In this document: piece by piece, positions 24,424 through 30,566 of the stretch
How positions within the stretch are numbered: the first letter of the stretch is position 1
How the letters are laid out: every line of letters begins with the position of its first letter
NCBI RefSeq assembly: GCF_045037415.1
Contig: NZ_CP173438.1
Strand: one strand, 5' to 3'
DNA from: Escherichia coli
GTDB taxonomy: Bacteria; Pseudomonadota; Gammaproteobacteria; Enterobacterales; Enterobacteriaceae
DNA length: 64,000 bases
Program-made: the position numbers and the translations under genes
Notes under the pieces: generated by a model
The model's input: only the letters and a program-made list of their open reading frames with translations
The model's database searches: none
Told to the model about the DNA's origin: nothing

Positions 24424-26685
24424 TTACATCTGACGGTTTTTATTGAAGTTAATCAAACTACCCGCCTTGATAATCTCGCGTTCTTCGGCAGTCAGACTTT
24501 CCATATAGAGCGTGATTTCCGTTACCGGTGCATCTTCATGGATCACATAACCTTTAAACGTCGTTCCAGGATTATCCAGCGCCGCTTTAATGCCAGGGAT
24601 GTAAATGTAATCCCCCACTTCAAAGGTTGGCGCTTCCGCCATCTGCAGCGGTAACATCCCCCAGTTGATGACGTTAGAACGATAGCGTTTAGTCGCGTAC
24701 TCCTCGGCAATATTCGCCAGACCGCCAATCACACGCTGACAACTCGCCGCCTGTTCACGCGCAGAACCATCGCCTGGTTTCACCGCATAGACCATGCTGC
24801 CAATTTCAGTTTGCAGCGGATCAACATGTTCCTGACCAGCAATCTGCTTAATGCGCGCAAACACCTCTGCCATCTCGCTGACATTCCCCGCCAGACGCTG
24901 ATTTTCCAGCTCAGCAGTCGCTTTACTTCTGCCAACATAACCTGGATCGCGGCGTGACAGGGTAAACTCCGCCAGACCAATCGGATTTGAACGATAAGAA
25001 GAGGTTTCACCGGAAGGAATCAGTTCGTCGGTGGTGGTCACTTCGTCGAGGATCTTCGAGCACACTTTGAGGACGATATTGTCAGTCAGCGCACCCAATT
25101 CCGGCCAGTCTTTAATGTTCGGTCCGTAAATCAGCGGTTGCTGGGTCGCCCCTTTCACAAAGCCTTGATAGACGCGATTTTTATACGGCGTTACATCGAA
25201 GGCGTACTCCGGCACGTTGTCCCAGCAATCGAGTTCGCTGGCAGAGGTTAAATAGCCACCGTTTGCCGCAGTCGCAGCGATAGAACGAGCGTCCATCAAC
25301 GCCACCGCTGACATCTGCCCATTAGCTGGCTTAGAGCCTTCGCGGTTCGGGAAGTTACGCGTGGTGTGGCGAATACTCAAACCGTTGTTGATTGGCGTAT
25401 CGCCCGCGCCAAAGCATGGGCCGCAGAACGCGGTTCTGATGATTGCGCCTGCGCCAATCAAATCTGCGACCACACCTTTTTTGGCGAGATCCATAAACAC
25501 CGGCTGTGATGACGGGTAAACCGCTAACGAGAAGGTGTCATTGCCGCAGGATTGACCGCGCAGCGCATTCGCCGCCGCGATGACGTTTTCATAGTTACCG
25601 CCAGAACAGCCCGCGATAATCCCCTGCTGCACTTTCAGGCGACCATTTTCCACTTTATCCAGCAGCGAGAGTTTGGCTTTACCGTGCGCCACGCGTTCGG
25701 ACTCAATTTCAATCTCACGCAGAATGTCGGTCAGGTTCTGGTTCAGCGTGTCGATTTCATACACGTTGCTCGGGTGGAATGGCAGCGCAATCATTGGTTT
25801 GATGGCGCTTAAATCAACGCTGATGCAGCCATCGTAGTACGCCATTGGTTGAGGGTTAAGTTGGCAGTAATCCTGGCCGCGACCGTGCAGCGCCAGCCAG
25901 TTATGGACTTCTTCATCGGTTTGCCAGACAGAACTTAAACAGGTCGTTTCAGTGGTCATCACGTCAACGCTGTTACGGAAATCGGTAGAGAGCGCTGCAA
26001 CACCGGGACCTACGAACTCCATCACTTTGTTTTTGACGTAACCGTTTTTGAACACGGCACCGATGATAGCCAGCGCCACATCCTGCGGCCCCACATACGG
26101 CGCAGGTTTTCCGGTCAGATGCACCGCAACCACGCCCGGATAGTCGATATCCCAGGTGTCATTAAGCAGTTGTTTTACCAGCTCGCCGCCGCCCTCACCG
26201 ACTGCCATTGTCCCTAATGCGCCGTAACGGGTGTGGCTGTCTGATCCGAGGATCATTTTGCCGCCGCCAGCCATCATTTCACGCATATATTGATGGATGA
26301 CCGCAATATGCGGTGGCACAAAAATACCGCCATAACGCTGGGCCGCCGATAAACCAAAAACATGGTCATCACCGTTAATGGTGCCGCCGACGGCGCAGAG
26401 TGAGTTATGGCAGTTGGTCAGCACATACGGCAGCGGGAAACGTTCCATACCGGACGCTTTAGCGGTCTGTACAATACCAACAAAGGTAATATCGTGAGAG
26501 GCTAATGAATCAAACTTAATTTTAAGTTTATCCATATTTCCGGACGTATTATGAGAAGAGAGAATAGACCAGGCAATAGTGCCTTTTTTGGCTTCTTCTT
26601 TTTTAATTTCGCCGGTGAAATGTTCTTCGGCAATTATTTCGTTATTACTGGCGAGAAACACGCCTTTTTCAGATAACTTGATCAT
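24424..26685 (-). CDS. ybhJ: Aconitase-family protein YbhJ
   Basis: Start taken at [11 protein letters not shown] (753 aa); aconitase-like Cys-containing core. Confidence 0.85.
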
Positions 26686-26780
26686 CAAATGCTCCAGATA
26701 TCTGCGCACCGGAAAGTGCGCAGAAAGATAATAAATGGATATACTCTAAATAATTCGAGTTGCAGGAAGGCGACAAGCGA

Positions 26781-26866
26781 GTGAATCCCCAGTCACTTAC
26801 ATAAGTAAGTGACTGGGGTGAGCGAACGCAGACGCAGCACATGCAACTTGAAGTATGACGAGTATA
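26781..26866. repeat. ERIC/IRU element (partial copy)
   Basis: GTGAATCCCCAG...ACATAAGTAAGTGACTGGGGTGAGCGAACGCAG...ATGCAACTTGAAGTATGACGAGTATA matches the ERIC terminal consensus. Confidence 0.65.
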
Positions 26867-26867
26867 T

Positions 26868-28301: not shown

Positions 28302-28376
28302 TTAATATCCTGTTCTTTCTGTATGACTCATACAGAATTCCTTTATTGATTGTCATTATCACGACAACAAAATTTT

Positions 28377-29429
28377 TCAGGGAAGATAAACTTCACCGGA
28401 AAATATTTTTCTGGTCGTCCGAATAACAGATGCGCGTAACGTCGTGGCATCCTGACCTTCATTACTTAAATGAACGTCGAGCGCACCACTGGGGTGTTCA
28501 ATATTGATATTGCCGTATCCTACAGAAGGGACGATTTGTCGGGTGACGGTACCTTCCAATGCACAACTACTGGAAATAGCAATAGCACCGGTTATCGCCA
28601 AAGCGCGATGGCAAGAATGCGGCATAAAATAACGCACATTAATTGCCCCGCCTTTCTGCGCTGGAGAAATAAGTACAGGTTTAGGGATAACCATATTACT
28701 GACATCGCCTAAACCCATTGCTTTACCCGCTTGTAGACGGATAGATTCAATGCGGGCTAATAATGCGTTGTCGGCATCCAGCTCTGCCGGTAATTCATAG
28801 CCTGTTTTTCCCAGATATTCAGCAGGAATAATGACAACTGGCATCGCCATATCGATACAGGTCACCGGGACATCGTCAAAATAATCAATCTGATTATCCG
28901 TCGGGAAGACTTTTCCGGTTTTCGTTCCGGCGGCATTCAGGAAAGTGAGCGCAACCGGTGCGGCAGTACCCGGTACGCCGTCAATTCTGGCGCTACCCTC
29001 GTACTCGACAACACCATTTGGCGTTTGCACATCAGCTTCGATGAACGTACCCGTATTGACGTTGCGGATACGTACGCGGGTAACTGGCGAAGTCGCTGCA
29101 ATCAAACCATTTTCAATGGCGAATGCCCCAACGCCAGACAGCATATTGCCGCAGTTAGGCGTGGTATCGACACGTTGCTCATGGACGATAACTTGAGCAA
29201 ACAGATAATCGACATCTGCACGCGGATCGCTGGAGCGGCTAATAATGGCGACTTTACTGGTCAGCGGATTACCGCCGCCAATACCGTCAATTTCCAGATC
29301 GTTACCGGAACCCATAATTGCCATCAATATTTTATCGCGCTGCGTTTGATCTTCGGGTAGATGTTCCGCTAACAGGAACGCGCCCCTCGAGGTTCCACCT
29401 CGCATCATCACGCAGGGTATTTTTTTCAT
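28377..29429 (-). CDS. ybhH: PrpF/AcnD-accessory-family isomerase-like protein YbhH
   Basis: 350-aa ORF; synteny. Confidence 0.8.
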   Translation of the reverse strand: MKKIPCVMMRGGTSRGAFLLAEHLPEDQTQRDKILMAIMGSGNDLEIDGIGGGNPLTSKVAIISRSSDPRADVDYLFAQVIVHEQRVDTTPNCGNMLSGVGAFAIENGLIAATSPVTRVRIRNVNTGTFIEADVQTPNGVVEYEGSARIDGVPGTAAPVALTFLNAAGTKTGKVFPTDNQIDYFDDVPVTCIDMAMPVVIIPAEYLGKTGYELPAELDADNALLARIESIRLQAGKAMGLGDVSNMVIPKPVLISPAQKGGAINVRYFMPHSCHRALAITGAIAISSSCALEGTVTRQIVPSVGYGNINIEHPSGALDVHLSNEGQDATTLRASVIRTTRKIFSGEVYLP

Positions 29430-29612
29430 AATAATGCCCTCAATTTAAAAACATAACTTATTGCGATATGGTTACATTAAGGGCAAAGCATCTCTAATGA
29501 CTTTAGCTCAACGATTAATAACATTTTTTCATTAATTTAAGTTGGCTAAATGCAGTTAAAATTTTTAACTGCCAGTCACCCAAAATCGTCGCTTCCATTT
29601 TCCGGAGTAATA

Positions 29613-30566
29613 ATGAAGCATGAATTATCAAGTATGAAGGCATTTGTCATACTGGCAGAGTCCAGTTCATTTAACAATGCTGCTAAATTACTCAATATTA
29701 CGCAACCTGCATTAACGCGAAGAATAAAAAAGATGGAGGAAGATTTACACATTCAACTATTTGAGCGTACAACTCGCAAGGTTACGTTAACAAAAGCAGG
29801 AAAAAGGTTGCTCCCGGAGGCGCGGGAATTAATAAAAAAATTCGATGAAACGCTTTTTAGTATTCGCGACATGAATGCTTATCATCGAGGTATGGTGACG
29901 TTAGCGTGTATTCCGACCGCGGTATTTTATTTTTTACCATTGGCAATCGGTAAATTTAATGAGCTGTATCCCAATATTAAAGTGCGGATTCTGGAACAAG
30001 GCACGAATAATTGCATGGAATCGGTGCTGTGTAACGAATCAGACTTTGGCATAAACATGAACAACGTCACAAATTCATCCATTGATTTTACCCCACTGGT
30101 CAACGAGCCGTTCGTGCTGGCCTGTCGGCGTGACCATCCATTGGCCAAAAAGCAGCTTGTAGAATGGCAGGAGTTAGTGGGTTACAAAATGATTGGCGTA
30201 CGCTCCTCCAGCGGCAACCGACTGTTGATAGAACAACAGCTAGCCGACAAGCCCTGGAAGCTGGACTGGTTTTACGAAGTGCGTCATCTTTCGACGTCAT
30301 TAGGGCTGGTGGAGGCGGGACTGGGGATTTCGGCGCTTCCTGGTCTGGCAATGCCCCATGCGCCCTATTCTTCGATTATTGGTATCCCACTGGTGGAACC
30401 CGTTATACGTCGGACATTGGGGATTATTCGCCGCAAAGATGCCGTGCTTTCTCCGGCAGCTGAACGCTTTTTTGCCTTGCTGATTAATTTGTGGACTGAC
30501 GATAAAGACAATTTGTGGACCAATATCGTCGAACGCCAGAGACATGCGTTACAGGAGATAGGTTAA
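29613..30566 (+). CDS. ybhD: LysR-family transcriptional regulator YbhD
   Basis: N-terminal HTH (FNNAAKLLNITQPALTRRIKKME); start at ATG 29613; divergent from ybhH. Confidence 0.85.
   Translation: MKHELSSMKAFVILAESSSFNNAAKLLNITQPALTRRIKKMEEDLHIQLFERTTRKVTLTKAGKRLLPEARELIKKFDETLFSIRDMNAYHRGMVTLACIPTAVFYFLPLAIGKFNELYPNIKVRILEQGTNNCMESVLCNESDFGINMNNVTNSSIDFTPLVNEPFVLACRRDHPLAKKQLVEWQELVGYKMIGVRSSSGNRLLIEQQLADKPWKLDWFYEVRHLSTSLGLVEAGLGISALPGLAMPHAPYSSIIGIPLVEPVIRRTLGIIRRKDAVLSPAAERFFALLINLWTDDKDNLWTNIVERQRHALQEIG

What the first reader, a model, noticed from the sequence alone, without database searches (positions are those of the whole stretch)
24424..30566. Uncharacterised ybhD / ybhH-ybhI-ybhJ module: LysR regulator divergent from a PrpF-like isomerase, DASS transporter and aconitase-family enzyme
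The arrangement (LysR regulator divergent from a three-gene unit encoding a PrpF/AcnD-accessory-like isomerase, a DASS-family anion transporter and an aconitase-family hydratase) is the layout expected for uptake and isomerisation/hydration of a tri- or dicarboxylate such as an aconitate, itaconate or methylcitrate-like compound. To my knowledge no substrate is established for it in E. coli. A LysR-type T-N11-A motif (TTAATAACATTTTTTCATTAA, about 29514-29534) lies in the divergent promoter, and a partial ERIC element separates ybhI from ybhJ, which could uncouple ybhJ expression.
Basis: inference. Interest (0 to 1): 0.4.

Follow-up and report, generated by a model that had tools for sequence, protein, structure and literature searches.

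The report
Probable trans-aconitate utilisation module, E. coli
The four poorly characterised E. coli genes ybhD, ybhH, ybhI and ybhJ are real, conserved and laid out as described, and comparison with other bacteria suggests they import the plant acid trans-aconitate and convert it to citrate or isocitrate, which nobody has yet tested in E. coli.

Summary
The window is E. coli chromosome carrying ybhJ (24424-26685, -), ybhI (26868-28301, -), ybhH (28377-29429, -) and divergent ybhD (29613-30566, +). About 98% of 5,426 complete genomes hold the region.

Small corrections: the LysR-type box lies at 29515-29535, and the ERIC element (26739-26867) is full length, not partial.

I found no published substrate. 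Published work shows only that YbhD represses ybhH.

- YbhD and YbhH are an orthologous regulator-isomerase pair (54-59% and 62-63% identity) with pairs in Pseudomonas, Dickeya and Pantoea. There they sit next to carboxylate transporters and, in two genera, a complete citrate lyase.
- Four Pseudomonas enzymes of this family were among the most active aconitate isomerases in a 2024 study, matched here through their published primers.
- YbhJ keeps the Fe-S ligands, the catalytic Ser and all four substrate arginines of aconitase.
- YbhJ orthologues (67-73% identity) in gut anaerobes lie in operons with citrate synthase and isocitrate dehydrogenase, or with citrate lyase.

Caveats: there is no E. 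coli experiment, RefSeq calls YbhH a 4-oxalomesaconate tautomerase, and one probable orthologue was inactive in vitro. Verdict: a new member of a known kind, of moderate interest.

The parts
24424..26685 (-). ybhJ: Fe-S aconitase-family hydratase (753 aa), proposed dedicated aconitase (cis-aconitate to citrate/isocitrate)
   Evidence: Alignment to pig mitochondrial aconitase keeps Cys358/421/424 (YbhJ C360/C421/C424), H147, D165-S166-H167, E262, R447, R452, S642 and R644. D553/R565 have the same 12-residue spacing as D568/R580 (pig D568/R580 numbering from memory). Asp100 is replaced by Cys92, and this is invariant in the catalytically intact family. Orthologues at 67-73% identity lie in citrate synthase/IDH and citrate-lyase operons.
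26700..26722 (-). GC-rich hairpin just upstream of the ybhJ Shine-Dalgarno sequence (CUGCGCAC-loop-GUGCGCAG); no U-tract
   Evidence: fold; hairpin recurs in Citrobacter and Edwardsiella, 3 of 10 pairs with compensatory change, covariation term about 0. Weak.
26739..26867 (.). Complete ERIC (intergenic repeat unit) element between ybhI and ybhJ, Escherichia-specific insertion
26868..28301 (-). ybhI: DASS-family carboxylate transporter, closest E. coli paralogues are the succinate antiporters TtdT and CitT
   Evidence: TIGR00785 553 bits. 34% identity to TtdT and 33% to CitT over the full length. 35.7% to spinach 2-oxoglutarate/malate translocator TC 2.A.47.3.1 (PMC9068703 supplement).
28377..29429 (-). 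ybhH: PrpF-superfamily isomerase, proposed aconitate isomerase (trans- to cis-aconitate)
   Evidence: structure 6OTV; K59/C93 align with LigU K66/C100. 62-63% identical to Pseudomonas, Dickeya and Pantoea proteins. The Pseudomonas family members were assayed as active aconitate isomerases.
29468..29477 (.). Conserved intergenic block ATGGTTaCAT
   Evidence: near-invariant, 9 of 10 positions, across Escherichia, Citrobacter and Edwardsiella. Function unknown.
29494..29504 (.). Invariant intergenic block CTAATGACTTT; the CTAATG core is also present in Dickeya and Pantoea (GTAATG in Pseudomonas)
29514..29536 (.).
   Evidence: unique in the window, 0.06 expected; right half-site invariant. Dickeya has ATTAAT-N11-ATTAAT at the same offset. 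Could bind YbhD and/or Nac, both LysR-type; not resolved.
29613..30566 (+). ybhD: LysR-type regulator, published repressor of ybhH; orthologous to the regulators divergent from YbhH-like genes in Dickeya (59%), Pantoea (56%) and Pseudomonas (54%)
   Evidence: PMC9068703.

Best explanation
ybhD/ybhH-ybhI-ybhJ is a LysR-controlled module that takes up trans-aconitate (or a very close aconitate-type tricarboxylate) and feeds it into central metabolism as citrate or isocitrate.

Proposed steps:
1. YbhI, a DASS transporter of the CitT/TtdT antiporter subgroup, imports the substrate, probably in exchange for an internal dicarboxylate such as succinate.
2. YbhH isomerises trans- to cis-aconitate by a Lys59/Cys93 1,3-proton shift.
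3. YbhJ, a [4Fe-4S] aconitase-type enzyme, hydrates cis-aconitate to citrate or isocitrate. This pulls an equilibrium that favours the trans isomer. It may also bypass AcnA/AcnB, because trans-aconitate is a known competitive aconitase inhibitor.
4. Aerobically the product enters the TCA cycle. Anaerobically it could be cleaved by citrate lyase (citCDEFXG), which E. coli encodes elsewhere.
5. YbhD binds the ATTAAT-N11-ATTAAT operator, keeps ybhH(I) off without inducer, and is presumed to respond to the aconitate.

Shown here: gene content, conservation, catalytic residues, orthology and gene contexts.
Inferred: the substrate in E. coli, YbhJ's activity, antiport, and the inducer.
For: (1) Regulator-isomerase orthology. 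YbhH is 62-63% and YbhD 54-59% identical over the full length to divergent pairs in Pseudomonas, Dickeya and Pantoea. Dickeya shares the operator at the same offset.

(2) Contexts of those pairs. Pseudomonas has LysR divergent from isomerase, SDF, CitMHS and an OprD porin. No further enzyme is encoded, so the isomerase product must be a central metabolite. Dickeya and Pantoea have LysR divergent from isomerase, MFS, an FAH-family enzyme and CitC-D-E-F-X-G.

(3) Biochemistry. In PMC11495376 the enzymes AI-7-1, AI-16-1, AI-32-1 and AI-41-1 from trans-aconitate-growing Pseudomonas isolates had 88-101% of TarA's forward activity and 12-115% of its reverse activity. Their primers encode N-terminus QRIPCV and C-terminus (F/A/L)(R/Q)RLAG. 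The Pseudomonas YbhH-like proteins start MQRIPCVLMRGG and end SQRLAG. Primer 32-1-F anneals at codon 2 of the gene in L089/L090 with one synonymous mismatch. The same paper's survey lists Shigella, E. fergusonii, Citrobacter and Edwardsiella as carrying a tarA homologue at 39-40.5% identity.

(4) YbhJ retains the three Fe-S cysteines, the catalytic Ser, His/Asp/Glu residues and all four carboxylate-binding arginines.

(5) YbhJ orthologues at 67-73% identity in Lachnospiraceae, Clostridium, Synergistales and Megasphaera sit next to citrate synthase and/or isocitrate dehydrogenase in about 18 loci, and next to CitD-E-F(-G) in 7 loci. In L015 and L060 the order is LysR divergent from MatC/CitMHS, PrpF, YbhJ and citrate lyase. 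This matches the Acidaminococcus pathway. In an NJ tree the enterobacterial clade is sister to one anaerobe clade in which both contexts are mixed.

(6) Three different PrpF lineages are found beside YbhJ-type genes, so the pairing arose repeatedly.

(7) YbhD represses ybhH (PMC9068703), and ybhH is a genomic-SELEX CRP target, as expected for a catabolic operon.

(8) E. coli's ttdR/ttdA-ttdB-ttdT locus has the same architecture: LysR, an Fe-S hydro-lyase and a DASS succinate antiporter.
Against: - There is no experiment in E. coli. E. coli is not known to me to grow on trans-aconitate, and engineered W3110 accumulates 37 g/L of it on glucose without re-consumption. The module would, however, be repressed under those conditions.
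- NCBIfam's 4-oxalomesaconate tautomerase equivalog accepts YbhH (514.9 bits against a cut-off of 440). The nearest enzyme of known function with a solved structure is LigU at 46% identity.
- AI-79 from Providencia rettgeri is probably a true YbhH orthologue, because its C-terminus GDVYVP resembles YbhH's GEVYLP. It had under 1% of TarA activity. The construct starts at RGGTSK and so omits about 9 N-terminal residues, and orthology was inferred only from the primer-encoded termini.
- ybhJ is cited as a 'catalytically inactive paralog' (PMC4054840), referring to Blank et al. 2002. That paper is not held. From memory, it showed only that inactivating ybhJ did not change the residual aconitase activity of an acnAB mutant.
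- YbhJ replaces aconitase Asp100 with Cys, and also Q72H, N170Y, N258V and S643A.
- The 2022 study linked the ybhD deletion to an L-malate growth phenotype, not to aconitate.
- The link between the assayed Pseudomonas enzymes and the YbhH family rests on primer-encoded termini, not on full sequences.
Confidence: 0.6

Rival explanations
1. The module handles a lignin- or polyphenol-derived ring-cleavage tricarboxylate. YbhH would be a genuine (4E)-oxalomesaconate delta-isomerase (LigU/GalD-like). YbhJ would hydrate the product (2-keto-4-carboxy-3-hexenedioate) in place of LigJ/GalB, before aldol cleavage.
For: YbhH passes the NCBIfam OMA_tautomer equivalog cut-off. It is 46% identical to LigU, with both catalytic residues conserved. 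Oxalomesaconate is chemically an oxo-homoaconitate, so an aconitase-type hydratase is conceivable (inference). RraA-like aldolase genes lie beside PrpF and aconitase-family paralogues in some clostridial loci (L050, L024).
Against: No ring-cleavage dioxygenase, LigJ/GalB hydratase or LigK/GalC aldolase lies at or near the locus in E. coli, Citrobacter, Edwardsiella, Pseudomonas, Dickeya or Pantoea. Closer relatives of YbhH than LigU (62-63%) belong to the family assayed as aconitate isomerases and carry the same RefSeq name, which suggests the name is over-extended. YbhJ orthologues sit with citrate synthase, IDH and citrate lyase, not with aromatic catabolism genes.
Confidence: 0.1
2. The substrate is a different unsaturated C5-C7 acid, such as itaconate/citraconate/mesaconate, 2-methylaconitate or homoaconitate. 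The logic would follow the Mii-DmdAB pair (methylitaconate isomerase plus dimethylmalate dehydratase) or the AcnD-PrpF pair. YbhJ might even act first, as a dehydratase, with YbhH correcting the alkene isomer.
For: PrpF-family isomerases paired with aconitase-family enzymes are known in both of those pathways (established knowledge; PMC5690661 listed). Mii (3g7k) is YbhH's third-best solved relative. Several substrate-shell residues of YbhJ differ from aconitase. One UniRef entry names an Edwardsiella orthologue a dimethylmalate dehydratase subunit.
Against: YbhJ keeps all four arginines, including the R580 equivalent that binds the third carboxylate. Scores against the PrpF and AcnD equivalogs are far below their cut-offs (187 vs 440; 63.5 vs 1420). 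There are no prpB/prpC, lyase or CoA-transferase genes nearby. The orthologue contexts are citrate-specific: citrate synthase, IDH and citrate lyase.
Confidence: 0.15
3. The module serves L-malate or other C4-dicarboxylate utilisation, as suggested in the 2022 LysR study, with YbhI as a malate or 2-oxoglutarate exchanger.
For: The ybhD deletion has a growth phenotype in glycerol minimal medium only when L-malate is added. YbhI is 35.7% identical to the plant 2-oxoglutarate/malate translocator (PMC9068703).
Against: This gives no role to a PrpF isomerase or an aconitase-type enzyme. The phenotype is also what a de-repressed dicarboxylate antiporter would produce as a side effect (inference). 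Gene contexts in other genera point to tricarboxylates.
Confidence: 0.07
4. YbhJ is a catalytically dead or purely regulatory aconitase paralogue and the module is a decaying remnant.
For: PMC4054840 calls it catalytically inactive, citing Blank 2002, and reports an oxidative-stress and NADPH phenotype. Rare E. coli alleles carry an in-frame deletion that removes two Fe-S cysteines. One genome has IS1 inserted in ybhH. Truly degenerate paralogues exist elsewhere (P0148, P0154).
Against: All cluster ligands and catalytic residues are invariant across the intact family. The deleted segment is present in 5375 of 5426 genomes. 67-73% identity across phyla indicates strong purifying selection.
Confidence: 0.05

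Closest known systems
TarR-TarA-TarB trans-aconitate assimilation system of Bacillus velezensis FZB42 (PMC11495376)
   Same: A LysR regulator is divergent from an operon that starts with a PrpF-superfamily aconitate isomerase followed by an importer. The isomerase product enters the TCA cycle.
   Different: TarB is an MFS importer and YbhI is DASS. TarR is an activator, whereas YbhD behaves as a repressor of ybhH. TarR boxes are TTATAA; here the box is ATTAAT-N11-ATTAAT. The tar operon has no aconitase gene. YbhH is only about 40% identical to TarA (value for Shigella).
Pseudomonas, Dickeya and Pantoea clusters with a YbhD-like LysR divergent from a YbhH-like isomerase (loci L089-L094; the Pseudomonas enzymes were assayed as AI-7-1, 16-1, 32-1 and 41-1)
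   Same: The regulator (54-59%) and isomerase (62-63%) are orthologous, the layout is divergent in the same way, and Dickeya shares the operator.
   Different: The transporters differ: SDF + CitMHS + OprD, or MFS. There is no dedicated aconitase. Dickeya and Pantoea add an FAH-family enzyme and a full citrate lyase.
trans-Aconitate fermentation via citrate, oxaloacetate and pyruvate in Acidaminococcus fermentans (Hartel & Buckel 1996, as cited in PMC3035267)
   Same: The reaction order is the same: uptake, aconitate isomerase, aconitase, then citrate lyase. The clostridial clusters L015 and L060 encode exactly this set around a YbhJ orthologue.
   Different: E. coli's citrate lyase is encoded elsewhere. 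Which Acidaminococcus genes do the job has not been mapped onto YbhJ or YbhH here.
E. coli ttdR / ttdA-ttdB-ttdT (L-tartrate) and citT-citCDEFXG (citrate)
   Same: In ttd, a LysR regulator is divergent from an Fe-S hydro-lyase and a DASS succinate antiporter. YbhI is 33-34% identical to TtdT and CitT.
   Different: The hydro-lyase family differs: class I fumarase-like TtdAB against aconitase-family YbhJ. There is no isomerase in ttd. YbhD is only 26% identical to TtdR.
AcnD-PrpF (2-methylcitrate cycle) and Mii-DmdAB (nicotinate fermentation)
   Same: A PrpF-family isomerase works next to an aconitase-family (de)hydratase.
   Different: YbhH and YbhJ score far below the PrpF and AcnD equivalog cut-offs. 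There are no prpBC or lyase genes nearby.
LigU/GalD (4E)-oxalomesaconate delta-isomerase
   Same: Same fold and same Lys/Cys catalytic pair, 46% identity, and YbhH passes the NCBIfam model.
   Different: The pathway context is absent, and closer homologues were assayed as aconitate isomerases.

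Membership tests
trans-Aconitate assimilation system (TarRAB type) | LysR-type regulator divergent from the isomerase operon | tested here: met
   YbhD is orthologous to the regulators of YbhH-like genes in three other genera.
trans-Aconitate assimilation system (TarRAB type) | PrpF-superfamily enzyme with aconitate isomerase activity | tested here: inconclusive
   Fold and the Lys59/Cys93 pair are present. Relatives at 62-63% identity match, by their termini, enzymes assayed as active. A probable orthologue, AI-79, was inactive as a truncated construct. 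YbhH's own activity cannot be tested with these tools.
trans-Aconitate assimilation system (TarRAB type) | MFS importer TarB | tested here: not met
   YbhI is DASS (PF00939, TIGR00785). Transporter class varies among related clusters: SDF/CitMHS, MFS, MatC.
trans-Aconitate assimilation system (TarRAB type) | Induction by trans-aconitate and growth on it | not testable with these tools
   Only repression of ybhH by YbhD is published.
Aconitase family ([4Fe-4S] hydro-lyase) | Three cysteine ligands of the cluster | tested here: met
   C360, C421 and C424 align with Cys358/421/424 and are invariant in the intact family.
Aconitase family ([4Fe-4S] hydro-lyase) | Catalytic Ser642 and the acid/base His-Asp-Glu network | tested here: inconclusive
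   S641, H93, H131, D149-S150-H151 and E246 are kept, but Asp100 is replaced by Cys92 throughout the family. The functional consequence is unknown.
Aconitase family ([4Fe-4S] hydro-lyase) | Four arginines that bind a tricarboxylate (R447, R452, R580, R644) | tested here: met
   R443, R448 and R643. R565 from motif spacing to D553. The pig numbering D568/R580 is recalled from memory.
Aconitase family ([4Fe-4S] hydro-lyase) | Citrate/isocitrate-aconitate activity | not testable with these tools
   Supported indirectly by orthologue contexts. Questioned by the secondary citation of Blank 2002.
LigU/GalD oxalomesaconate isomerase | Sequence model (NF033377) and the Lys/Cys pair | tested here: met
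   514.9 bits against a cut-off of 440; K59/C93.
LigU/GalD oxalomesaconate isomerase | Location within a protocatechuate 4,5-cleavage or gallate pathway (dioxygenase, OMA/KCH hydratase, CHA aldolase) | tested here: not met
   None of these genes is in the E. coli locus or in seven related loci.
AcnD-PrpF 2-methylcitrate route | Equivalog-level match to PrpF and AcnD, with adjacent prpB/prpC | tested here: not met
   PrpF 187 vs 440.55; AcnD 63.5 vs 1419.85. No prp genes nearby.
DASS family, exchanger subgroup (TC 2.A.47.3) | DASS fold and relatedness to CitT, TtdT and OMT | tested here: met
   Exchange versus symport cannot be tested here.
ERIC / intergenic repeat unit | Imperfect palindrome of about 127 bp, dispersed in intergenic transcribed regions of enterobacteria | tested here: met
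   The core contains the ERIC2 primer sequence AAGTAAGTGACTGGGGTGAGCG (primer recalled from memory; sequence).

The most novel reading that the evidence does not exclude
E. coli carries a third, normally silent, genuine aconitase. YbhJ would belong to a lineage otherwise used as the working aconitase of gut Clostridia, Collinsella and Synergistales. That lineage has a Cys-His pair where classical aconitases have Asp100-His101, and it may tolerate trans-aconitate. Together with YbhH and the antiporter-type YbhI, it would let E. coli and its relatives use plant-derived trans-aconitate in the gut. Anaerobically this would run through citrate lyase with succinate exchange. The locus would be a mosaic of a proteobacterial regulator-isomerase pair and a clostridial-type enzyme.
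Probability: 0.4. Interest if true: 0.6.

Novelty: new member of a known kind. Interest (0 to 1): 0.42.

Why it matters
Four genes of the E. coli 'y-ome' would get a concrete function that is cheap to test. The RefSeq name '4-oxalomesaconate tautomerase', applied to thousands of enterobacterial and Pseudomonas proteins, would be shown to be too broad. The textbook count of E. coli aconitases (AcnA, AcnB, plus PrpD side activity) would change. trans-Aconitate is abundant in grasses, maize and sugar cane, so a dedicated uptake route in enterobacteria and many gut anaerobes would define a dietary niche. It would also matter for engineered E. coli strains that produce trans-aconitate, where the native module is a potential sink.

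Tried and rejected
- **Literature.** Searches for ybhH/I/J/D, 6OTV, LigU, and ybhJ with aconitase found no functional assignment. Blank et al. 2002 and the LigU structure paper are not held.
- **Rfam.** Only sub-threshold hits caused by ERIC and REP repeats.
- **Promoters and terminators.** A sigma-70 consensus scan of the divergent region found nothing. No terminator-like site lies between ybhI and ybhJ.
- **R580 equivalent.** phmmer did not align that region to pig aconitase even through an intermediate clostridial aconitase. The assignment rests on motif spacing.
- **Word-indexed homologue search for YbhJ.** It returned only close enterobacterial sequences. The exhaustive representative search plus a species-genome scan were needed.
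- **Divergent YbhJ representatives.** P0148 and P0154 turned out to be degenerate paralogues and were dropped from the profile.
- **Collinsella neighbourhoods.** The neighbours are heat-shock genes, which is uninformative.
- **Base composition.** No clear foreign signature: genes are 45-52% GC against 51% for the window.
- **Hairpin upstream of ybhJ.** The covariation test was weak.
- **Rejected readings.** An AcnD/PrpF methylcitrate role (equivalog scores far below cut-off), and YbhJ as a dead enzyme (all ligands conserved).

Full report
**What is there**

The window is E. coli chromosome. Region 24000-31000 is 100% identical to several complete genomes, and 5316 of 5426 complete genomes hold at least 80% of it. 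RefSeq annotation and my ORF list agree:

| Gene | Coordinates | Strand | Length |
|---|---|---|---|
| ybhJ | 24424-26685 | - | 753 aa |
| ybhI | 26868-28301 | - | 477 aa |
| ybhH | 28377-29429 | - | 350 aa |
| ybhD | 29613-30566 | + | 317 aa |

The cluster lies between ybhC and pgl. Profile searches give:
- YbhJ: Aconitase + Aconitase_C, with its own NCBIfam equivalog 'hydratase'.
- YbhI: DASS.
- YbhH: PrpF, above the cut-off of the '4-oxalomesaconate tautomerase' equivalog.
- YbhD: LysR.

**Small features**

It is the only TTAAT-N11-ATTAA in the 64-kb window, against 0.06 expected. An alignment of the divergent intergenic region from E. coli, E. albertii, two Citrobacter and Edwardsiella shows three conserved blocks: ATGGTTaCAT, CTAATGACTTT, and the box itself. 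The right half-site of the box, ATTAAT, is invariant.

The repeat between ybhI and ybhJ is a complete ERIC element, not a partial one. It is 129 bp long with 26-nt terminal inverted arms, and it occurs at a median of 11 places per genome. It is an Escherichia-specific insertion, because the gap is 182 bp in Escherichia and 63-73 bp in Citrobacter and Edwardsiella. On the mRNA strand it folds at -73.7 kcal/mol (z = -9.6). It has no terminator-like U-tract. Whether it affects ybhJ expression is unknown.

**What is published**

A 2022 study of LysR factors reports that ybhH is strongly up-regulated in a ybhD deletion. It also reports one ChIP-exo site, Nac control of ybhHI, and a malate-dependent growth phenotype, and it labels the function 'L-malate utilization related' (PMC9068703). 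ybhH is a genomic-SELEX CRP target. A ybhJ deletion is H2O2-sensitive with low NADPH. That paper calls YbhJ a 'catalytically inactive paralog', citing Blank et al. 2002 (PMC4054840). I could not read Blank 2002. From memory, it showed only that inactivating ybhJ did not alter the residual aconitase activity of an acnAB mutant.

A crystal structure of YbhH exists (6OTV, 'putative isomerase YbhH'). I found no paper that assigns a substrate.

**YbhJ looks like a working aconitase-type enzyme**

Against pig mitochondrial aconitase, YbhJ keeps:
- the three cluster cysteines;
- His147, Asp165-Ser166-His167 and Glu262;
- Arg447, Arg452, Ser642 and Arg644.

Asp553 and Arg565 lie in [15 protein letters not shown] with the same 12-residue spacing as Asp568/Arg580 (the pig numbering of those two residues is from memory). 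These residues are invariant in the catalytically intact family.

The differences are Asp100 to Cys92 (a family signature, TNCHNSL), Gln72 to His, Asn170 to Tyr, Asn258 to Val and Ser643 to Ala.

In complete E. coli genomes the gene is almost always intact. An in-frame deletion allele that removes residues 418-536, including two cluster cysteines, exists but is rare. The deleted segment is present in 5375 of 5426 genomes and the 3' part of the gene in 5415.

**Where YbhJ orthologues live**

An exhaustive search found few 50%-identity clusters of full-length relatives. A scan of one genome per species found 596 relatives. The best 80 include Escherichia, Citrobacter and Edwardsiella with the full four-gene layout. 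The rest are gut anaerobes at 67-73% identity over the full length: Lachnospiraceae, Enterocloster, Hungatella, Blautia, Clostridium, Collinsella, Synergistales and Megasphaera.

Clustering of neighbouring ORFs and profile searches show two recurrent contexts:

- **Type A:** YbhJ next to citrate synthase (PRK14032, above cut-off) and/or an isocitrate-dehydrogenase-like gene, in about 18 loci. Examples are L017, L018, L019, L025, L026, L042 and L044. Synergistales use an IDH1-type enzyme.
- **Type B:** LysR divergent from YbhJ, CitD, CitE, CitF and sometimes CitG, in 7 loci. In L015 and L060 these are preceded by MatC/CitMHS transporters and a PrpF-family gene.

No DASS gene accompanies YbhJ outside enterobacteria. 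In an NJ tree the enterobacterial proteins are sister to a single anaerobe clade in which both contexts are mixed.

The simplest reading is that this orthologous group interconverts citrate, cis-aconitate and isocitrate. Type B reproduces the pathway described for Acidaminococcus fermentans, in which trans-aconitate goes to citrate, oxaloacetate and pyruvate (Hartel & Buckel 1996, as cited in PMC3035267).

**YbhH and YbhD**

YbhH's best solved relative of known function is LigU at 46% identity. Lys59 and Cys93 of YbhH align with LigU's catalytic Lys66 and Cys100. Much closer homologues exist, at 62-64% identity, in Pseudomonas, Dickeya, Pantoea and Azotobacter. Their contexts are telling:

- **Pseudomonas:** LysR divergent from the isomerase, SDF, CitMHS and an OprD porin, with no other enzyme.
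- **Dickeya and Pantoea:** LysR divergent from the isomerase, MFS, an FAH-family enzyme and CitC-D-E-F-X-G.

The divergent regulators are 54-59% identical to YbhD over the full length. Dickeya has ATTAAT-N11-ATTAAT at the same offset from the isomerase start as E. coli. The YbhD-YbhH pair is therefore an orthologous unit across these genera.

**Link to biochemistry**

The 2024 ISME J paper on the Bacillus TarR-TarA-TarB system describes a LysR activator, a PrpF-type aconitate isomerase and an MFS importer. It also assayed 16 TarA homologues from environmental isolates that grow on trans-aconitate. Four of these enzymes had high activity relative to TarA:

| Enzyme | Source | Forward (% of TarA) | Reverse (% of TarA) |
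|---|---|---|---|
| AI-7-1 | P. plecoglossicida | 95.6 | 106.9 |
| AI-16-1 | P. viridiflava | 88.0 | 114.8 |
| AI-32-1 | P. protegens | 101.5 | 11.6 |
| AI-41-1 | P. parafulva | 101.4 | 16.4 |

Their primers encode the N-terminus QRIPCV and a C-terminus ending RLAG. The Pseudomonas YbhH-like proteins begin MQRIPCVLMRGG and end SQRLAG. Primer 32-1-F anneals at codon 2 of the gene in my Pseudomonas loci with one synonymous mismatch.

The second homologue in each strain has typical PrpF termini and was weak, at 2-4% forward activity.

AI-79 from Providencia rettgeri ends GDVYVP (YbhH ends GEVYLP) and was nearly inactive, although the strain grows on trans-aconitate. The construct starts at RGGTSK, so it omits about 9 N-terminal residues.

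The paper's survey table lists Shigella, E. fergusonii, Citrobacter, Klebsiella and Edwardsiella as having a tarA homologue at 37.6-40.5% identity. It does not discuss ybhHIJ, and E. coli itself is not in the part of the table that is held.

**YbhI**

YbhI is 34% identical to TtdT and 33% to CitT, the two E. coli DASS succinate antiporters. The ttd locus has the same architecture as the ybh locus: LysR divergent from an Fe-S hydro-lyase and a DASS antiporter.

**Synthesis**

The best-supported model is a trans-aconitate (or very close analogue) utilisation module, with these steps:
1. uptake by YbhI;
2. isomerisation by YbhH;
3. hydration by YbhJ;
4. control by YbhD.

I put this at about 0.6.

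The main counter-evidence is:
- there is no E. coli experiment;
- the database name and the LigU similarity point elsewhere;
- AI-79 was inactive;
- the old ybhJ result was negative;
- the ybhD deletion phenotype involved malate;
- engineered W3110 accumulates trans-aconitate on glucose without re-consuming it, although repression by YbhD and glucose would explain that.

**Novelty**

The genes and their regulator are known, and the kind of system is known from TarRAB and the Acidaminococcus pathway. What is new is the assignment of the E. coli module to that kind and the recognition that YbhJ is orthologous to the aconitase of gut anaerobes. The composition is also distinctive: a DASS transporter plus a dedicated aconitase. 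The result is a new member of a known kind, of moderate interest, with cheap decisive experiments.

Noticed in passing
window 24289-24421: REP/BIME-type repeats between the convergent genes ybhC and ybhJ. They give three sub-threshold Rfam hits to naRNA4, a REP-derived RNA.
   Followed up: no
window 25078-25434 (ybhJ residues 418-536): Some E. coli carry a 634-aa YbhJ with an in-frame 357-bp deletion that removes Cys421, Cys424, Arg443 and Arg448. It is rare: the segment is present in 5375 of 5426 complete genomes, against 5415 for the 3' part of the gene.
   Followed up: yes
ybhH in NZ_CP124420.1 (hit H1): Strain AVS0155 has an IS1 insertion that splits ybhH into two 'PrpF domain-containing protein' fragments.
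   Followed up: no
window 27585-27836 (+), antisense to ybhI: Sub-threshold Rfam match to Yersinia sRNA 283 (41 bits against a gathering score of 58, E = 7e-9). It is probably just conservation of the ybhI coding sequence, to which that Yersinia RNA would be antisense.
   Followed up: no
window 29552-29572: Perfect 10-bp inverted repeat GCAGTTAAAA-T-TTTTAACTGC, 41 bp upstream of the ybhD start. It is partly kept in E. albertii and absent in Citrobacter and Edwardsiella.
   Followed up: partly
window 26700-26722: GC-rich hairpin directly upstream of the ybhJ ribosome-binding site. It recurs in Citrobacter with a different sequence. 3 of 10 pairs show compensatory change, but the covariation term is about 0.
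   Followed up: partly
P0148, P0154 (YbhJ relatives, 37-38% identity): Full-length paralogues that have lost the Fe-S cysteines, the DSH motif and the catalytic Ser, so they look like pseudo-enzymes.
   Followed up: partly
L050 8567-14660; L024 7250-12432; L005 199-10202: Some Clostridia carry second clusters. These combine an RraA-like aldolase, a PRK07229-type aconitase, a 40-48% YbhJ paralogue, a group-B PrpF and sometimes an Iso_dh gene. This is possibly a separate tricarboxylate pathway.
   Followed up: partly
L058-L085 (Collinsella): In Collinsella the YbhJ orthologue sits at a fixed position between hspR-dnaK-dnaJ and clpB, with no metabolic neighbours.
   Followed up: no
RefSeq/NCBIfam name of YbhH and its homologues: The name '4-oxalomesaconate tautomerase' is applied to enterobacterial YbhH and to the Pseudomonas family whose members were assayed as aconitate isomerases. 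None of these loci contains gallate or protocatechuate pathway genes, so the equivalog probably over-reaches.
   Followed up: partly
PMC4054840: [quoted passage not shown] The reported low-NADPH phenotype of the ybhJ deletion would fit reduced isocitrate supply, but this is speculative.
   Followed up: partly
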